Assembly (NCBI GenBank): GCA_012026655.1
Contig: JAAILG010000248.1
Span: forward strand, 1 to 64,000
Direction of reading: 5' to 3'
Source: Hydrolagus affinis
Lineage: Eukaryota
DNA: 64,000 bases
Positions 54,301-60,300 of the stretch are shown piece after piece. The position numbers were made by a program. Each line of letters starts with the position of its first letter. Position 1 is the first letter of the stretch.

Positions 54301-57300
54301 GTCTGTAGATAATCTTTATATAAGAAAAACAATTGGTTCAATGTATATAGTTGCATATTTGAGGCAGAGTGTGTAGTGTACCAACCATTTCTTATCATAA
54401 TGTGTTGTACTCAAGCTCTTTGTCAGAAAGGATATTGCACATCCTCACCCTTTTGTTGTAGGACAACCATTATTTTTTTTCCAAAAGGACAAAATAATGA
54501 ATGCTTCATCTTTGACAGATTAGATATTCTCAGCCTATTACACAATGCAAATCAATTTAATGTTGCAATGAAAAGACAAAAGGGTTGGTATTCTGGAGAG
54601 ATGAGGTCAAATGCAACATGGCTGGTAATCCCAGGCAGGCCTATAATAATGGAAGGCACTGTTTATGGTTAATCAGCCTGTCTGCCTTATCAATGAGAAA
54701 TGGATATGCCCTTTGAGCCAAGGCCTAAACTGGAACGGGTGGAAACTGGAAACTAAGCTGAGTAGTTATCATTCCCTTTAAGCAGTCTTTATTTTCTTTT
54801 TACATGAGGACATAGGATATTTAACCATTTACTTCCTTTCAGAAAGCAGCACAGTTATTCCATACAGAACAATGTGTGAATTTAGACATGAGGTCTGTGC
54901 CAGTCCGTGCATCAAAACCTGCAGTGATCCCCATGGTACAGCATGCAAGTTTCTACCACTGTAAGTGTCTGAGTGTCTTACTAATGTCAAAAACAACAAC
55001 AATTTGCATTTGTATAGCACCTTTCACGTCGGGAGGATGTCCCTATACATTTCGCACTATCGGGAATCAAACCCAGGTCTCTCACTTGCAAGGCCAGTGG
55101 TCTAACTACTGAGCTACAGGACTCCACAATATACAGTAATATGAAATGTAGTGACTGTGTAATTTGTGGGGAAACACGGCAGCCAATTCGCTCACATCAA
55201 AATCCTAGAAGTACAGTTGTAGGATTGAATGACTGAATTCAATTGAATTGAATAATGATGGCGATTGTTGGCCGGTGCACTCTGCCCCAAACCAGAAATC
55301 ACATGTCATCATTCTTTTCAGCTCCTTTAAGGTGACTGAGGACAAAAAACGTAGGCTGTGGATCTCTGCACAGCTGCTGTCAATGTGGGTCAGCAGCACA
55401 TATGAGTGGTCCCACATTCATGACTAGCCTTGCTAACTTGTCATTGCCCTTTGGACCCACTGGGTGGCACCCTTTGTTACCATGAGGAACTTCAACTGAT
55501 AGCCTAGCTTTTTTATTCACTTTAGTAGTGAAATTTGAGCGATAGTTAAAGCTGGGATTCAGATTATGGCTCTGGTCTATTCTTCACATACTACCTTGTG
55601 TCAGCCAAGCACTTTTGCCTTTGAGTCCGGTGATTGTGGGTTCAAACTGCACTAGAACATGATTGTATGAAATAATGGGCTGTAGGCTTTTCTCCGCTCC
55701 AACCTCCTATTCTAATGAGTTCCCAATAATCCTCACTTCTGTGAAGCGGGTGCCTGACCATAGCAGGGAGAGAAGGAAAATCAGCACCATAGTTGTCCCA
55801 GAGCCAGTTATTGAAGGGAGCTTCTCCCAAGTGTCCTTGCAAACAATCCTCCAGATAAAATTGGTCACTCACCCCATGGCTTTTTGGGACATTGCTGTGT
55901 ACAAATTGACTACTGTGTTCACCTATAAGTACACAATCACTACACTTTACAGAAAATACTGTAACAAACTTTAAAGCATCTTCCCAATGTGAAAGTCAAA
56001 GGTGATTATTGTTTATTATTCTACTTTTGACTGGATCATAACACCATCAGCATTGGCTGGGAGCAGATGGACTCCTGCCTGTCCTCTCAGTTGCAGGCAA
56101 ACTCTGGATCAGAGAGATTTTCAAATAAACTGGAAGGATGTGAATTCCAGGAGAGAAGCAAACCTTAATATATCTTATGTTATATTAACATAATATGTTA
56201 ATATATCTTATGTTTTTCCTCTCTTTTTCTCACGTAGAGTAGAGGGCTGCATGGCACATTGTCCAAAGCTCATGCTTCTTGATGAAGTCACTCGTAGATG
56301 TGTTCATCCAGAGGACTGTGAGTGTCTTTTCCTTCAAATCCTTTTGTATTTTCTGTTGCTGACTAAGATGAGGGAAGCAACGGCTGGAGAGTATCTGCCA
56401 GTGATAGTACTGTACCTAATATTCATTAGCCTGTTATCCTGCTGATCAGCAAAATTATACTTTAATTTCAGTCTCCCCTTATCTTTGAGCCAGAAAATGG
56501 CACTTACTGTACTCCATCCATCAAGACTGAATTGCCTAAGAAGTTGTCAGTTGCTTTTATTCAATTTGAAATGCTGGGTATTCTGGTCTGTTAAATAATA
56601 TGAAAGAAAAATTCGACAGAATTATGAAATACTTAAGAGTATTTATGGTCTTGTTCCATACCTAAACAGATCCCTAGAAATCAGGTTAAAAAAGTACTAC
56701 TGTATAGCTAACAAGAAACAGGTTGGCTACATTAAGGGAATAAACCATTAGAATTCTGGTCCTTATTTGCAAAAGAACAACAATTTTCAGCTTTTTGATT
56801 TAACAATGTGTAGATTTTATATTAACCTACAGGGCAGGAGATTCCAGGTTTGTTCCTAGTCAGTGATGAGATTGCTGATCTCAACCCTGGCAGTACAATT
56901 GAGCTTAGTGCTTCTGGTTAAGGGATAAAAATATAGTATGGCTCCTCCTAATCACAACCGAGTGACCTTATAGGGAGAATGCAACTTGGATTAGCTGTGA
57001 GGTACAGTCAAGGCTCACGATTAAAATGGCCACCTGAGTGAGCAAACACAGGGAGAGCTGCACCAGTACAACCAATAGAGGGAAACATCCCAATAAAATT
57101 GGAAAGAGAAACAATAATGGCCCATTTAGTGGGTTTAACAGGAAAAAAAGATAATACTGATAATCATGATGCAAAATAAATCATTCATTGACTGCATACT
57201 TTATTGCAGGTATCAATATAACTGCTACAGAATTACCTTATCTTCCAACACCTGGTAAAACATCCATTGCAACAGAAGCAGCAGACAGTCCTCCTGCTAT

Positions 57301-60300
57301 GTCAGTGACTCCAACAACATTACGGGTGACAGAAAAATCCACAACATTAACGCCAGCTAGGACAACTTTGTTACCCCAACTGACTACTCCTCTGGCATCT
57401 ACAGCATCCTCAGCTAGGACCACAATTACAGCTGTCACCACAGGTTCCCGCCAGTTTCCTTCAAGTGCATTAACAACAGAGGTCACCGGCTCCACTACAT
57501 CTCTCGCAACAGCTAATATAACATCAACCCTGACAACACCCGCTGTACCTCTGCTCACCACCACAACTTCTGTTGGAATTACTCCCATTTCTGCAACTCA
57601 AGAAACACTCTCTCCCTCAGTTACTGCTTCACGCAGTGCTTTTTCAACAACAGCAATTACCAAAAGACCTGAAGCCACTGGCTACTCCTCACAGAGCCCA
57701 CATGTTGGCACGTCATCTGCTAGTCCACACAAAACTGTATCAGTGACTGTTGGACAACCTTTCACTGTAACCCAGTTGGTAACTACAGCACAGGTCGTGC
57801 AGTCAAGGTATGACACCTCCCCTGGAAGTGTAGAATCCGCAACAGTGAAACGGACAACTGTGGCAACTACCAAACCTGCAAAGCTATTCACCGAGCTGAG
57901 GACGACGCTCACTAAACTAACAGAGTCGACAATTGCAACTGCAGCAGGATCCAAAGAGACACAGGACACTTGGCACACCAGAGCGCCGTTCGTGGCTTCA
58001 CCTGGACTTTTCTTCACATCAACCAGTGCTTCTTTGACTCCCCAGATAAGTGGCACTGATGCGACAGCGAAGCCAACTGAATTTGCCACATCTTTGACAG
58101 TGGCACCTACACCAGAACCCACCATGTATCCTGTACCACTCACAGCTAGTTCTACTTCAGCCACAACTTTTGAGGAGAAAGCCACACCAGCAGCAATCTC
58201 CACATCAACGTCCTCCCCACCAGCTAATTTGACTTCCTCATCGAATAGAACAGTTATCCCTGAGATGCCTTTGCCTTTTCCTCCCACTCTGACTTCTCCC
58301 ACTTCTGAGGCTCCAACGGCTGCTCAACCAGAAAGTGCAATTCCTTTTGACACCTCAGTTACACTCTCTGATTCTCAAACCGCAGCATCTTCAGCAACAC
58401 TCTCTGCCCCGCAATGCATAGTACGAACATTTGTTTATTTAAAAAGAATGTGTAACTTTGAAGACAACATGTGATCGTAATTTATTTTAAAACTTTTAAA
58501 ACACCTGCACATTATGGCTATTGACTGCAATAGAGCTTTTGAAAAGACGTTATATTTCATATTTTTTCCTTGATGTTATTATTGCTATCTATCATTAGTC
58601 TATGTCTACCTAGCTCAGTTGGTAGCACTCTTATTTCTGAATCAGAAGGTTGTGGGTTCAAGCCCTTGCCACAATTCAAAAAGAAGAGAATTTCTCCCAG
58701 CGTCCTAGCCAATATCCCCAAATAAACTTGGAATTTTACTTAAAAGACTATCTGTGGGACATTGCTGTATTCAGATTGGCTGCTGTGTTCCCCCACAAAA
58801 TACACGATTATTACACTTTACAGTATATCCCGTGAAGCACTTTGAGATGTCCCTTAAAGTGAAAGCAATATATGAAATTCAAATTGAAGGATTATTATTA
58901 TCTAATAATATTATTATTATCTAATAATAATATTATTAATACTTTAAGAGGTTGAGACTCTCTGGACTGCAGATTATTCCAATTCTGCTAGCAATGTCAC
59001 TCACTCTTTGACCAGGATTTAAGACAGGCATTGCGACAGGTTGAATATATAATCCAAGAATTTATTTCACAATTTTGTTGTTTTTAGTTGGTGGAAAATA
59101 TTAATAATAAAAAATATTCATTGTGTATTGTAGACGATCTATTGTCATCATAATATCTCAAAGCACTTCACACGATTTTACTGTGAACTGTAGTGATTAT
59201 GTATTTGTAGGCTAATGTGGCAGCCAATTTGCATGCAACAAGGTCCCACAAATAGCCATAGATGATCAATTCTATGAGTAAGTGCAGTACTGCATGTTTG
59301 CATGTTCTGATGCATTTGTTTTGTATCATTTCTTTGCAGTGTGCTTTTAATGTGACACAGCCAAGCTGCGGCTTTCTGGGGATGCCTCTCCAAGTAAACA
59401 ATGACAAGTGCTGTCCTCGGTGGGAATGCCCATGTGAGTTTGGGTGTTACATTTAGGTTCTCGTACTACTTCACAACAAGTGGATGGTTAATACTATTGT
59501 ACCATTGTTCTAAAATGTGATACCTACTTTGAAATGGCAGAGCACCAACGATAGACATGGACAAACCTCTTACTGATTGAGTTTTTCACTTGTCTTGTGT
59601 ACTTGTCTTGAGTTCTGTTTCCTTCTCAGTTCACTGTCTTGCTGTACTGTCTCTGATCTCCTTACTATCTGATTCTCCACTTTATTTCTCGATCCTGTAA
59701 CTTTGTTTGTTGTGTTTCCTCATCGGTCTTTATCTTCTGTCTTTAACAGCCTTCCCCCTTCCTTGCTTTAAGTCCACAGTTTCTGTAGCAGTGGCAACGT
59801 GAAGTGTTTGGAGAGCACATATCCTCATGAATTTGTCACGAGTGATCCCAATAATGGTTTTCTTCTCTCCAAATATAAAGTACTAAATAAAATCTGTGTT
59901 TTTACCACGCCACCTTAACATTCTTGTAGTATACCTGTTTTAATAGTTGGTTTAACAGTAGTGTTATTGAAATATTTAACTTGATAGTATATGCAGGCAA
60001 TGTGATGCACATATATTGTTTTCATTTTTGTGATTTGGAGAATATTGTCAGAATATGTGAAGTACTGTAGTTCCCAATCATTTCAATGTGCTATATAACA
60101 CAATCTGATACAATCTTTATTGTTTTACATCACGTCAGGTCGCTGTTCAATGTTTTCTGACCTGCACATAATCACATTTGACGGCAATGATGTGGGAGTG
60201 TATGATGCTGCAGCCTATGTACTGACCCTGTTGCCACAAGAAACTATTGTTGCTCACATTGAACAGTGCTCCACACGTGAGGTAATTTATGGCTTTTCCA

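What the first reader, a model, noticed from the sequence alone, without database searches (positions are those of the whole stretch)
57210..58420. OTOGL carrying a large otogelin-type mucin (TSP) domain
Seen: a single 1211-nt in-frame exon encodes ~403 aa dominated by T/S/P/A, non-tandem, with Cys only at the edges, between the post-AbfB Cys region and VWD4. Knowledge (recalled): a long TSP domain here characterises OTOG, while mammalian OTOGL has only a few dozen such residues. This gene is OTOGL by N-terminus and VWD motifs. Inference: the pre-duplication ancestor had the mucin domain and amniote OTOGL lost it, so this fish may make a second heavily O-glycosylated gel-forming otogelin (cupula, otolithic membrane, possibly lateral line or ampullary gel).
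Basis: partly seen in the sequence, partly recalled or inferred. Interest (0 to 1): 0.7.

Follow-up and report, generated by a model that had tools for sequence, protein, structure and literature searches.

The report
Ordinary mucin-like exon of chimaera OTOGL
The long threonine/serine/proline-rich exon is real and belongs to the inner-ear gene otogelin-like (OTOGL) of a chimaera-type fish, but the same domain is already annotated in OTOGL of most non-mammalian vertebrates, so it is ordinary.

Summary
Window 57210-58420 (+) is one 1211-nt open exon of 403 codons, 60% T/S/P/A, not tandemly repeated, with Cys only at its two ends. It is the longest open frame in the window.

The gene is OTOGL. 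Its best match is the RefSeq otogelin-like protein of the elephant shark Callorhinchus milii: 78.6% mean identity over 45 exon matches. That protein already carries the same exon, at residues 1416-1812, 70% identical and starting at the same residue.

A Cys-free TSP stretch of 200 aa or more, mostly beginning near residue 1425 (the position of the window's exon), occurs in 177 of 228 OTOGL-clade proteins examined. These include 5 of 5 cartilaginous fishes, 25 of 25 amphibians and 89 of 95 sauropsids (up to 1007 aa).

"Amniote OTOGL lost it" is wrong; at most mammals did, judged from a human length of 2344-2353 aa in papers.

O-glycosylation and expression in lateral line or ampullae are untested. 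The exon's donor is weak (5 of 9 consensus positions) and no RNA data were available.

One residue of interest remains: six full-text searches found no paper that describes this non-mammalian OTOGL mucin-like domain.

The parts
57210..58420 (+). TSP (Thr/Ser/Pro/Ala-rich, mucin-like) exon of OTOGL; 403 codons plus 2 nt that complete a Cys codon begun in the previous exon
   Evidence: sequence, frame, composition; 291 of 413 identical to Callorhinchus OTOGL residues 1416-1812; longest ORF in the window; 0 of 2000 shuffles open.
56238..56317 (+). Upstream Cys-rich exon (..VEGCMAHCPKLMLLDEVTRRCVHPED + T of a Cys codon). Donor ACT|GTGAGT matches 7 of 9 consensus positions.
59340..59433 (+). Downstream Cys-rich exon (CAFNVTQPSCGFLGMPLQVNNDKCCPRWECP..). 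Acceptor tttctttgcag|TGT, phase 0, in frame with 58420.
47882..48160 (+). AbfB-domain exon, the hallmark domain of the otogelin family
   Evidence: Pfam AbfB, E 1e-05; splice sites; 88% identity to Callorhinchus OTOGL
54830..54961 (+). Cys-rich exon between AbfB and the TSP exon
   Evidence: 88.6% identity to P0322 residues 1345-1388
61671..61862 (+). VWD4 exon downstream of the TSP exon
   Evidence: Pfam VWD; 98.4% identity to P0322 residues 1950-2013
15457..63661 (+). Extent of the OTOGL gene seen in the window. 38 exon bins match Callorhinchus OTOGL residues 18-2132 of 2685. The 3' end of the gene, including any cystine knot, lies beyond the window.
   Evidence: VWD x4, C8, TIL, AbfB by ORF

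Best explanation
The exon is the TSP linker exon of the OTOGL orthologue of a holocephalan (a chimaera-type cartilaginous fish, close to but not identical with Callorhinchus milii). It is a conserved, already annotated part of OTOGL in nearly all non-mammalian jawed vertebrates, and not a peculiarity of this fish.

Likely working (inferred, not shown). The Cys-free stretch is 38% Ser+Thr and 10% Pro and has no recognisable fold. It sits between the N-terminal VWD1-3/AbfB part and the C-terminal VWD4 part. It probably carries O-glycans and acts as an extended, hydrated spacer. The disulfide-forming VWD/C8/TIL modules on either side would link the protein into the acellular gels of the inner ear: otolithic membrane and cupula.
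For: Identity
- Pfam on single ORFs gives VWD x4, C8, TIL and AbfB in otogelin order on the + strand.
- tblastn of 108 fish OTOGL-clade proteins puts XP_007903181.1, otogelin-like of Callorhinchus milii (P0322), first: 45 HSPs, 78.6% mean identity.
- In 31 of 38 exon bins a named non-chondrichthyan OTOGL scores above every protein of the other otogelin clade. The other clade wins 2 bins. In 5 bins neither has a match.
- In 4 of 4 single-exon trees the window exon is nearest to Callorhinchus OTOGL. In 3 of 4 a starred branch (96-99) holds it with all 19 named OTOGL rows, apart from the other clade.

The exon itself
- It aligns to P0322 residues 1416-1812: 291 of 413 identical, E 3e-144. It starts at the same residue (INITATELPY..) and ends at the same ..SAPQC.
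- It has been kept open over 403 versus 397 codons in the two species.
- Ser/Thr positions are identical at 123 of 140 aligned sites, against 183 of 237 for other residues (Fisher p 0.014).

Generality
- 177 of 228 OTOGL-clade proteins have a Cys-free stretch of 200 aa or more with at least 37% S+T+P. In the 120 tetrapod rows it mostly starts near residue 1425.

Mechanism
- PTS domains are typically at least 40% Ser+Thr and more than 5% Pro, and become stiff O-glycosylated rods (PMC4948705, passages seen).
- 104 of 304 windows of 100 aa in the exon meet both figures.
Against: - No RNA evidence for the junctions. The donor ATA|GTACGA matches only 5 of 9 consensus positions, while an internal site at 57808 matches 7 of 9, though it is out of frame.
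- Overall Ser+Thr is 37.7%, just under the usual 40% mark for mucin domains, and the exon has no repeats.
- PMC5789918 (passage seen) states that otogelins lack an extensive PTS domain and are mainly N-glycosylated. The exon has 4 N-X-S/T sequons.
- 51 of 228 OTOGL-clade models lack a stretch of 200 aa or more. These are mostly short models of 2000-2400 aa, so some transcripts or annotations omit it.
- The second otogelin clade in my trees carries no names, so calling it OTOG is an inference.
Confidence: 0.85

Rival explanations
1. The exon is a cassette or is only partly used: mature OTOGL mRNA in this fish skips it or uses another donor, giving a mammal-like protein without the TSP domain.
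For: - The donor is weak, 5 of 9 consensus positions.
- 51 of 228 OTOGL-clade models lack a long TSP stretch.
- Bird isoform models of one species differ in TSP length: Harpia 959/430/392 aa, Athene 835/347/236 aa.
Against: - The frame is open for 434 codons where none of 2000 shuffles is.
- It is 70% identical over its whole length to the Callorhinchus protein, with the same ends.
- The best internal donor-like site (57808, 7 of 9) breaks the frame. The in-frame internal sites reach only 5-6 of 9.
- Most models without TSP are short Ensembl/UniRef-type models.
Confidence: 0.1
2. The segment is a flexible, mostly unglycosylated or N-glycosylated linker and not a mucin-type O-glycosylated domain.
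For: - Ser+Thr is 37.7%, below the usual 40% (PMC4948705).
- There are no tandem repeats and 4 N-X-S/T sequons.
- PMC5789918 (passage) says otogelins are mainly N-glycosylated.
Against: - 104 of 304 windows of 100 aa reach at least 40% S+T with at least 5% Pro.
- Ser/Thr are better conserved than other residues, 88% against 77%.
- Teleost OTOGL stretches reach 0.6-0.72 S+T+P.
- Mouse OTOG's equivalent region is named a TSP domain, residues 1451-2036 (PMC4659790, passage).
Confidence: 0.25
3. The gene is OTOG (or a third paralogue), not OTOGL, so a long TSP domain is simply the known OTOG feature.
For: - OTOG is the member known for a TSP domain (PMC4659790).
- I obtained no protein named plain 'otogelin' as a direct comparator.
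Against: - The nearest proteins are named otogelin-like: 119 of 120 rows and 108 of 120. None is named plain otogelin.
- 31 of 38 exon bins favour the OTOGL clade.
- The window exons nest inside chondrichthyan OTOGL in 4 of 4 single-exon trees.
Confidence: 0.02

Closest known systems
Otogelin-like protein of Callorhinchus milii (RefSeq XP_007903181.1; P0322, 2685 aa)
   Same: - Orthologue: 45 colinear exon matches, 78.6% mean identity.
- It holds the same TSP exon at residues 1416-1812, 70% identical, with the same first residues and the same ..SAPQC end.
- Composition is alike: S+T 38.9%, P 10.1%.
   Different: - It is another species: conserved exons are 75-100% identical, not 100%.
- There are 27 gap positions in the TSP alignment.
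- The Callorhinchus model carries 19 extra residues between SAPQC and CTFNVTQ. In the window these correspond to the end of the intron and are out of frame.
OTOGL of other non-mammalian vertebrates (named otogelin-like in NCBI/UniRef)
   Same: - Same domain order, with a Cys-free TSP stretch; in the tetrapod rows it mostly starts near residue 1425.
- Sharks and rays: 263-430 aa.
- Gar, bowfin, sturgeon, reedfish: 350-386 aa.
- Teleosts: 201-490 aa.
- Amphibians: 708-928 aa.
- Sauropsids: 221-1007 aa.
   Different: - The sequence of the TSP stretch is barely alignable outside holocephalans, 26-31% identity.
- It is two to three times longer in amphibians and most sauropsids.
- It is richer in S/T/P in teleosts, 0.6-0.72.
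Mammalian OTOGL (human 2344 or 2353 aa)
   Same: EGF-like, 4 VWD, C8, TIL, AbfB and cystine knot, as listed in PMC11854685 and PMC12274630 (passages). The window shows all of these except the cystine knot, which would lie beyond its end.
   Different: - Those papers list no TSP domain.
- The human length equals that of the TSP-less models (2243-2345 aa), and of Callorhinchus OTOGL minus its TSP stretch (2685 - 396 = 2289).
- I examined no mammalian sequence.
OTOG (otogelin) TSP domain
   Same: - The Thr/Ser/Pro-rich domain lies between VWD3/AbfB and VWD4. In mouse it spans residues 1451-2036 (PMC4659790, passage).
- In the unnamed second clade, 7 of 9 proteins have it, starting about 55-185 residues after AbfB. 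In three near full-length ones it starts at residues 1434-1441.
   Different: - It is a paralogue: 43-48% identity to the window in conserved exons, against 54-79% for OTOGL.
- Calling that clade OTOG is my inference.
Gel-forming mucins (MUC2/5/6/19) and Xenopus MucXS, formerly called 'Otogl'
   Same: VWD-C8-TIL units flank a central Ser/Thr/Pro-rich region (PMC4948705, PMC5789918).
   Different: - Mucin PTS domains are usually repetitive, much longer and interrupted by CysD or Cys-rich modules, and mucins have no AbfB.
- MucXS has 34 PTS and 39 Cys-rich repeats, is encoded by many exons, and its authors say it is misnamed (PMC5789918).
- The window's exon is a single 403-aa non-repetitive stretch.

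Membership tests
Otogelin family (OTOG/OTOGL) | Several VWD-C8-TIL units | tested here: met
   Pfam on single ORFs: VWD in four groups (17864/19650; 24908/26590; 33634/42679; 61671), C8 at 22057, 28351, 44744 and 63305, TIL at 23394, 29400 and 31818
Otogelin family (OTOG/OTOGL) | AbfB domain (named as the otogelin hallmark in PMC4948705) | tested here: met
   Pfam AbfB E 1e-05 on 47863-48243. With that exon as query, the strongest of the 102 hits include long VWD-type proteins of 1200-4000 aa.
Otogelin family (OTOG/OTOGL) | C-terminal cystine knot | not testable with these tools
   The window ends at the equivalent of residue 2132 of 2685 of Callorhinchus OTOGL.
OTOGL orthology group | Closer to named OTOGL than to the paralogous clade, exon by exon | tested here: met
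   31 of 38 exon bins favour OTOGL, 2 the other clade, 5 have no match in either. In 3 of 4 single-exon trees a starred split puts the window with the 19 named OTOGL rows.
OTOGL orthology group | Groups with mammalian OTOGL, away from named OTOG, in one tree | not tested
   No mammalian OTOGL and no protein named otogelin was obtained.
OTOGL orthology group | Conserved gene neighbourhood | not tested
   Only an RPS16-like gene is seen upstream. No annotated vertebrate genome was available for comparison.
Mucin-type PTS/TSP domain | Ser+Thr at least 40% and Pro above 5% (PMC4948705) | tested here: inconclusive
   The whole exon has S+T 37.7% and P 10.4%. 104 of 304 windows of 100 aa meet both figures; the maximum S+T is 47%.
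Mucin-type PTS/TSP domain | Tandem repeats (frequent in mucins, not obligatory) | tested here: not met
   TRF finds none in the exon. There are only two 2-copy short direct repeats.
Mucin-type PTS/TSP domain | Dense O-glycosylation | not testable with these tools
   No glycosylation predictor or data were available. PMC5789918 reports otogelins as mainly N-glycosylated.

The most novel reading that the evidence does not exclude
OTOGL of essentially all jawed vertebrates except mammals is a mucin-like otogelin, with a TSP domain of 260-1000 aa. The short, TSP-less OTOGL on which the literature's picture rests would then be a mammal-specific loss, not an amniote one. Papers describe OTOGL without a TSP domain, and one states that otogelins lack an extensive PTS region. 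The loss may go with the remodelling of the mammalian tectorial membrane and hair-bundle attachment. Six full-text searches turned up no paper that describes this, but subscription journals and supplements were not searchable.
Probability: 0.5. Interest if true: 0.35.

Novelty: already known. Interest (0 to 1): 0.15.

Why it matters
For this window it matters little. The exon is a standard part of an orthologue whose counterpart has long been in RefSeq.

The wider pattern may be of modest use to inner-ear biologists. Work on zebrafish, chick or Xenopus OTOGL deals with a protein that carries a large mucin-like domain absent from the human and mouse protein. The domain's loss, if confined to mammals, would be a datable change in the matrix proteins of the ear.

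Tried and rejected
- Search with the TSP exon alone for longer proteins. It found nothing, but the tool only looked at proteins of 707-2015 aa, too short for full OTOGL, so this says nothing.
- Protein atlas, to name the second clade. One search failed on size. One search, with P0013, gave only an automatic 'Otogelin-like' label at score 0.90, which does not separate OTOG from OTOGL.
- Papers on the original OTOG/OTOGL descriptions (PMC3487139, PMC6926040, PMC25017) are not held. PMC12097039 and PMC8234668 gave nothing on domain lengths.
- The Xenopus skin 'Otogl' (MucXS) looked at first like prior art for a mucin-type OTOGL. Its authors show it is a misnamed gel-forming mucin with a different build, so I do not count it.
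- Rfam scan of the window: 0 matches.
- Lineage-specific gain of the exon: rejected, because the domain sits at the same place in both otogelin clades.
- Structure prediction of the exon was not run. A single low-complexity sequence would give low confidence whether or not it is disordered.
All searches and trees used single exons.
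Full report
**1. The observation**

The sequence at 57210-58420 on the + strand begins after a good acceptor (ttattgcag|GT) and ends before a GT (A|GTACGA). Of its three frames only the one from 57212 is open; the others hold 20 and 18 stops. It encodes 403 residues: T 94, S 58, A 48, P 42. That is 60.0% TSPA, 48.1% TSP and 37.7% S+T. The single Cys is at residue 402.

The upstream exon ends ..CCAGAGGACT|GTGAGT at 56317. Its last base T joins GT at 57210-57211 to make a Cys codon. 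The downstream exon starts at 59340 in phase 0 (tttctttgcag|TGT GCT..), which fits an exon ending on a full codon at 58420.

The stop-to-stop ORF that holds the exon (57170-58474, 434 aa) is the longest in all six frames of the window. The second longest, 213 aa, is its antisense image. None of 2000 shuffles of the exon stays free of stops. Tandem Repeats Finder reports nothing inside the exon, and the only direct repeats are two 2-copy matches of 24 and 16 nt.

**2. What gene it is**

Every search and tree used single exons or database proteins.

Pfam scans of the 271 + strand ORFs of 45 aa or more give the following order:
- VWD1 (17864, 19650), C8 (22057), TIL (23394)
- VWD2 (24908, 26590), C8 (28351), TIL (29400, 31818)
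- VWD3 (33634, 42679), C8 (44744)
- AbfB (47863-48243)
- the TSP exon
- VWD4 (61671), C8 (63305)

AbfB together with VWD-C8-TIL units is the mark of otogelins (PMC4948705, passages).

The AbfB exon alone, searched against 1.84 billion representative proteins, found 102 hits. The long ones fall into three groups in a tree of the N-terminal part:
- Clade A holds every protein that a source names otogelin-like.
- Clade B is unnamed: P0055, P0054, P0073, P0048, P0077, P0046, P0026, P0032, P0013.
- The third group serves as outgroup.

Two further searches gave names.
- With P0004 (otogelin-like, the caecilian Geotrypetes), 119 of the 120 listed proteins are named otogelin-like or OTOGL.
- With P0024 (otogelin-like, rainbow trout), 108 of 120 are so named and the rest carry uninformative names.
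- None in either list is named plain otogelin.

tblastn of the 108 fish proteins against the window puts XP_007903181.1, otogelin-like protein of Callorhinchus milii (P0322, 2685 aa), far ahead: 45 HSPs, 78.6% mean identity. Skate and shark OTOGL follow at 60-69% and ray-finned fishes at 55-61%. Conserved exons are 75-100% identical to P0322. The window therefore comes from a holocephalan that is near to, but not the same as, C. milii.

Exon by exon, a named non-chondrichthyan OTOGL outscores every clade B protein in 31 of 38 exon bins. Clade B wins 2 bins. In 5 bins, the TSP exon among them, neither has a match.

In single-exon trees (VWD1, VWD2, AbfB, post-VWD4) the window exon is nearest to Callorhinchus OTOGL in 4 of 4. 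In 3 of 4 it sits with all 19 named OTOGL rows behind a starred branch. The 60-column VWD2 tree is unresolved.

I obtained no protein named otogelin. That clade B is OTOG is an inference, from the fact that two AbfB-bearing otogelins are known in vertebrates.

**3. The exon is already annotated and is the rule, not the exception**

The window's exon aligns to P0322 residues 1416-1812 with 291 of 413 identities and 27 gap positions (E 3e-144). It begins with the same INITATELPYLPTPGKTS and ends with the same SAPQC. The Callorhinchus stretch has the same make-up: S+T 38.9%, P 10.1%.

As a simple measure I took the longest Cys-free stretch, counted if it is 200 aa or more with at least 37% S+T+P. 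In the 120 tetrapod rows this stretch mostly starts near residue 1425. I applied the measure to all 228 proteins. 177 of 228 have such a stretch:

| Group | With stretch | Length (aa) |
|---|---|---|
| Chondrichthyans | 5 of 5 | 263-430 |
| Gar, bowfin, sturgeon, reedfish | 4 of 5 | 350-386 |
| Teleosts | 54 of 98 | 201-490 |
| Caecilians | 3 of 3 | 873-928 |
| Salamanders | 3 of 3 | 890-903 |
| Frogs | 19 of 19 | 708-827 |
| Turtles | 2 of 5 | 805, 1007 |
| Crocodilian | 1 of 1 | 783 |
| Squamates | 10 of 10 | 613-865 |
| Birds | 76 of 79 | 221-960 |

Of the 51 without such a stretch, 7 have S/T/P-rich stretches of 165-197 aa. Most of the rest are short models of about 2000-2400 aa.

The claim that amniote OTOGL lost the domain fails too: 89 of 95 sauropsid proteins have it.

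Only a mammalian loss remains possible.
- Papers give human OTOGL as 2344 or 2353 aa and list EGF-like, VWD, C8, TIL, AbfB and cystine-knot domains, with no TSP (PMC11854685, PMC12274630, passages).
- That length equals the TSP-less sauropsid models (2243-2345 aa) and Callorhinchus OTOGL minus its stretch (2289 aa).
- I examined no mammalian sequence, so this rests on lengths alone.

**4. Ancestry**

In clade B, 7 of 9 proteins have a long S/T/P-rich region after AbfB. It starts about 55-185 residues after AbfB, and at residues 1434-1441 in three near full-length proteins. In the caecilian OTOGL (P0004) the region starts 62 residues after AbfB. None of the 6 outgroup proteins has a long S/T/P-rich region without many Cys.

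Mouse OTOG's TSP domain is given as residues 1451-2036 (PMC4659790, passage).

**5. How it probably works**

Shown:
- Composition, lack of Cys, lack of any Pfam match and lack of repeats.
- Position between the two disulfide-rich halves.
- Conservation of frame and length between two holocephalans.
- Ser/Thr sites are better conserved than the rest: 123 of 140 against 183 of 237, Fisher p 0.014. Alignment of a biased sequence can inflate this.

Inferred: it is an O-glycosylated, extended spacer of the mucin kind. PTS domains of at least 40% Ser+Thr and more than 5% Pro become stiff 'bottle brushes' (PMC4948705, passage).

The exon is borderline by that measure. It is 37.7% S+T overall, and 104 of 304 windows of 100 aa pass.

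Against heavy O-glycosylation, PMC5789918 (passage) says otogelins lack an extensive PTS domain and are mainly N-glycosylated. The exon has 4 N-X-S/T sequons.

Nothing here bears on expression in lateral line or ampullae.
- In zebrafish, otog and otogl are among the genes used to identify inner-ear nonsensory cells, and a separate marker set identifies lateral-line nonsensory cells (PMC9851615, passage).
- A different mucin is the reported neuromast cupula component (PMC11765562, abstract and passages).

**6. Weak points**

- The donor ATA|GTACGA matches 5 of 9 consensus positions. It is the best GT that keeps frame with 59340; the only other in-frame GT before the stop, at 58433, matches 3 of 9.
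- Inside the exon the best donor-like site (57808, 7 of 9) would shift the frame. In-frame sites at 57779 and 57326 reach 6 of 9.
- The Callorhinchus model joins SAPQC to CTFNVTQ through 19 residues. In the window these correspond to the end of the intron and are out of frame. The exact 3' junction therefore needs RNA.
- Bird isoform models differ in TSP length within a species, so alternative use of TSP coding sequence occurs at least in annotation.

**7. Literature**

Six full-text searches found no paper that describes a TSP or mucin domain in true OTOGL of non-mammals. The only paper in the listings of those searches that pairs OTOGL with mucin-domain terms is the Xenopus skin 'Otogl' paper. 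Its authors rename that protein MucXS and call it misnamed (PMC5789918).

Subscription papers were not held, including the first OTOG and OTOGL descriptions. Supplements are closed; those of PMC4948705 may list otogelin domain structures.

**8. What stayed unchecked**

- Transcripts and expression.
- Any mammalian OTOGL sequence.
- Any protein named OTOG.
- Synteny.
- The closed metagenome and viral collections, and the bacterial genome collection, do not bear on a vertebrate gene and were not used.

**9. Verdict**

The feature is real and correctly placed in OTOGL, but it is ordinary. Its orthologue is in RefSeq for the sister genus, and the domain is the norm in non-mammalian OTOGL. Novelty: already known. 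Interest: 0.15.

The boldest reading left is that the TSP-less OTOGL is a mammal-specific loss that the literature has not noted (probability about 0.5, interest about 0.35).

Noticed in passing
window 6996-10174 (+): An apparently intact five-exon gene for ribosomal protein S16 (uS9) lies upstream of OTOGL on the same strand. Coding pieces were read at about 6996-7043, 8266-8367, 9200-9298, 9886-9933 and 10031-10171. Pfam gives Ribosomal_S9 on two ORFs. The last exon matches PDB 40S S16 chains at E 1e-25. The other exons were read and recognised from memory of RPS16.
   Followed up: partly
window 58560-58930, plus 13 partial copies (e.g. 857-944, 1525-1672, 7825-8047, 42124-42228, 48499-48650, 52385-52511): An interspersed repeat just downstream of the TSP exon recurs in many introns and upstream, on both strands, at 72-89% identity. 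Rfam has no match for it.
   Followed up: partly
window 5563-5775 (+): A reverse-transcriptase fragment (Pfam RVT_1, E 3e-08), presumably a decayed retroelement.
   Followed up: no
window 57682-58323 (-): A 213-aa antisense ORF, the second longest in the window, mirrors the TSP exon. It is a by-product of the exon's biased codons (58% C at codon position 2), not a gene.
   Followed up: yes
window 58421 and 59280-59340; P0322 residues 1813-1832: The TSP exon's donor is weak (5 of 9). The Callorhinchus RefSeq model carries 19 residues (YCVFTCSDAFVLFCIISLQ) that match the intron end before the window's 59340 acceptor. This suggests that either that model uses an upstream acceptor or the junction differs between species.
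   Followed up: partly
proteins P0112/P0124/P0131 (Harpia), P0126/P0162/P0169 (Athene): Isoform models of bird OTOGL differ by up to about 600 aa in the TSP stretch within one species (959/430/392 and 835/347/236 aa). This hints at alternative splicing, or model uncertainty, in this domain.
   Followed up: no
window 10652-10751: A run of 100 N, just downstream of the RPS16-like gene. It was left as it is.
   Followed up: no
window 33841-40657 and 48161-54829: Two introns of about 6.7 kb each, inside VWD3 and after the AbfB exon, are far longer than the other introns of the gene. The second holds ORFs without family matches.
   Followed up: no
protein P0324 (Heterodontus francisci OTOGL, 2858 aa): Its precomputed Pfam list includes PF17919 and PF17917, which I recall to be reverse-transcriptase/RNase H-type domains. 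Its longest Cys-free stretch has only 38% S+T+P. The model probably includes a transposon piece.
   Followed up: no
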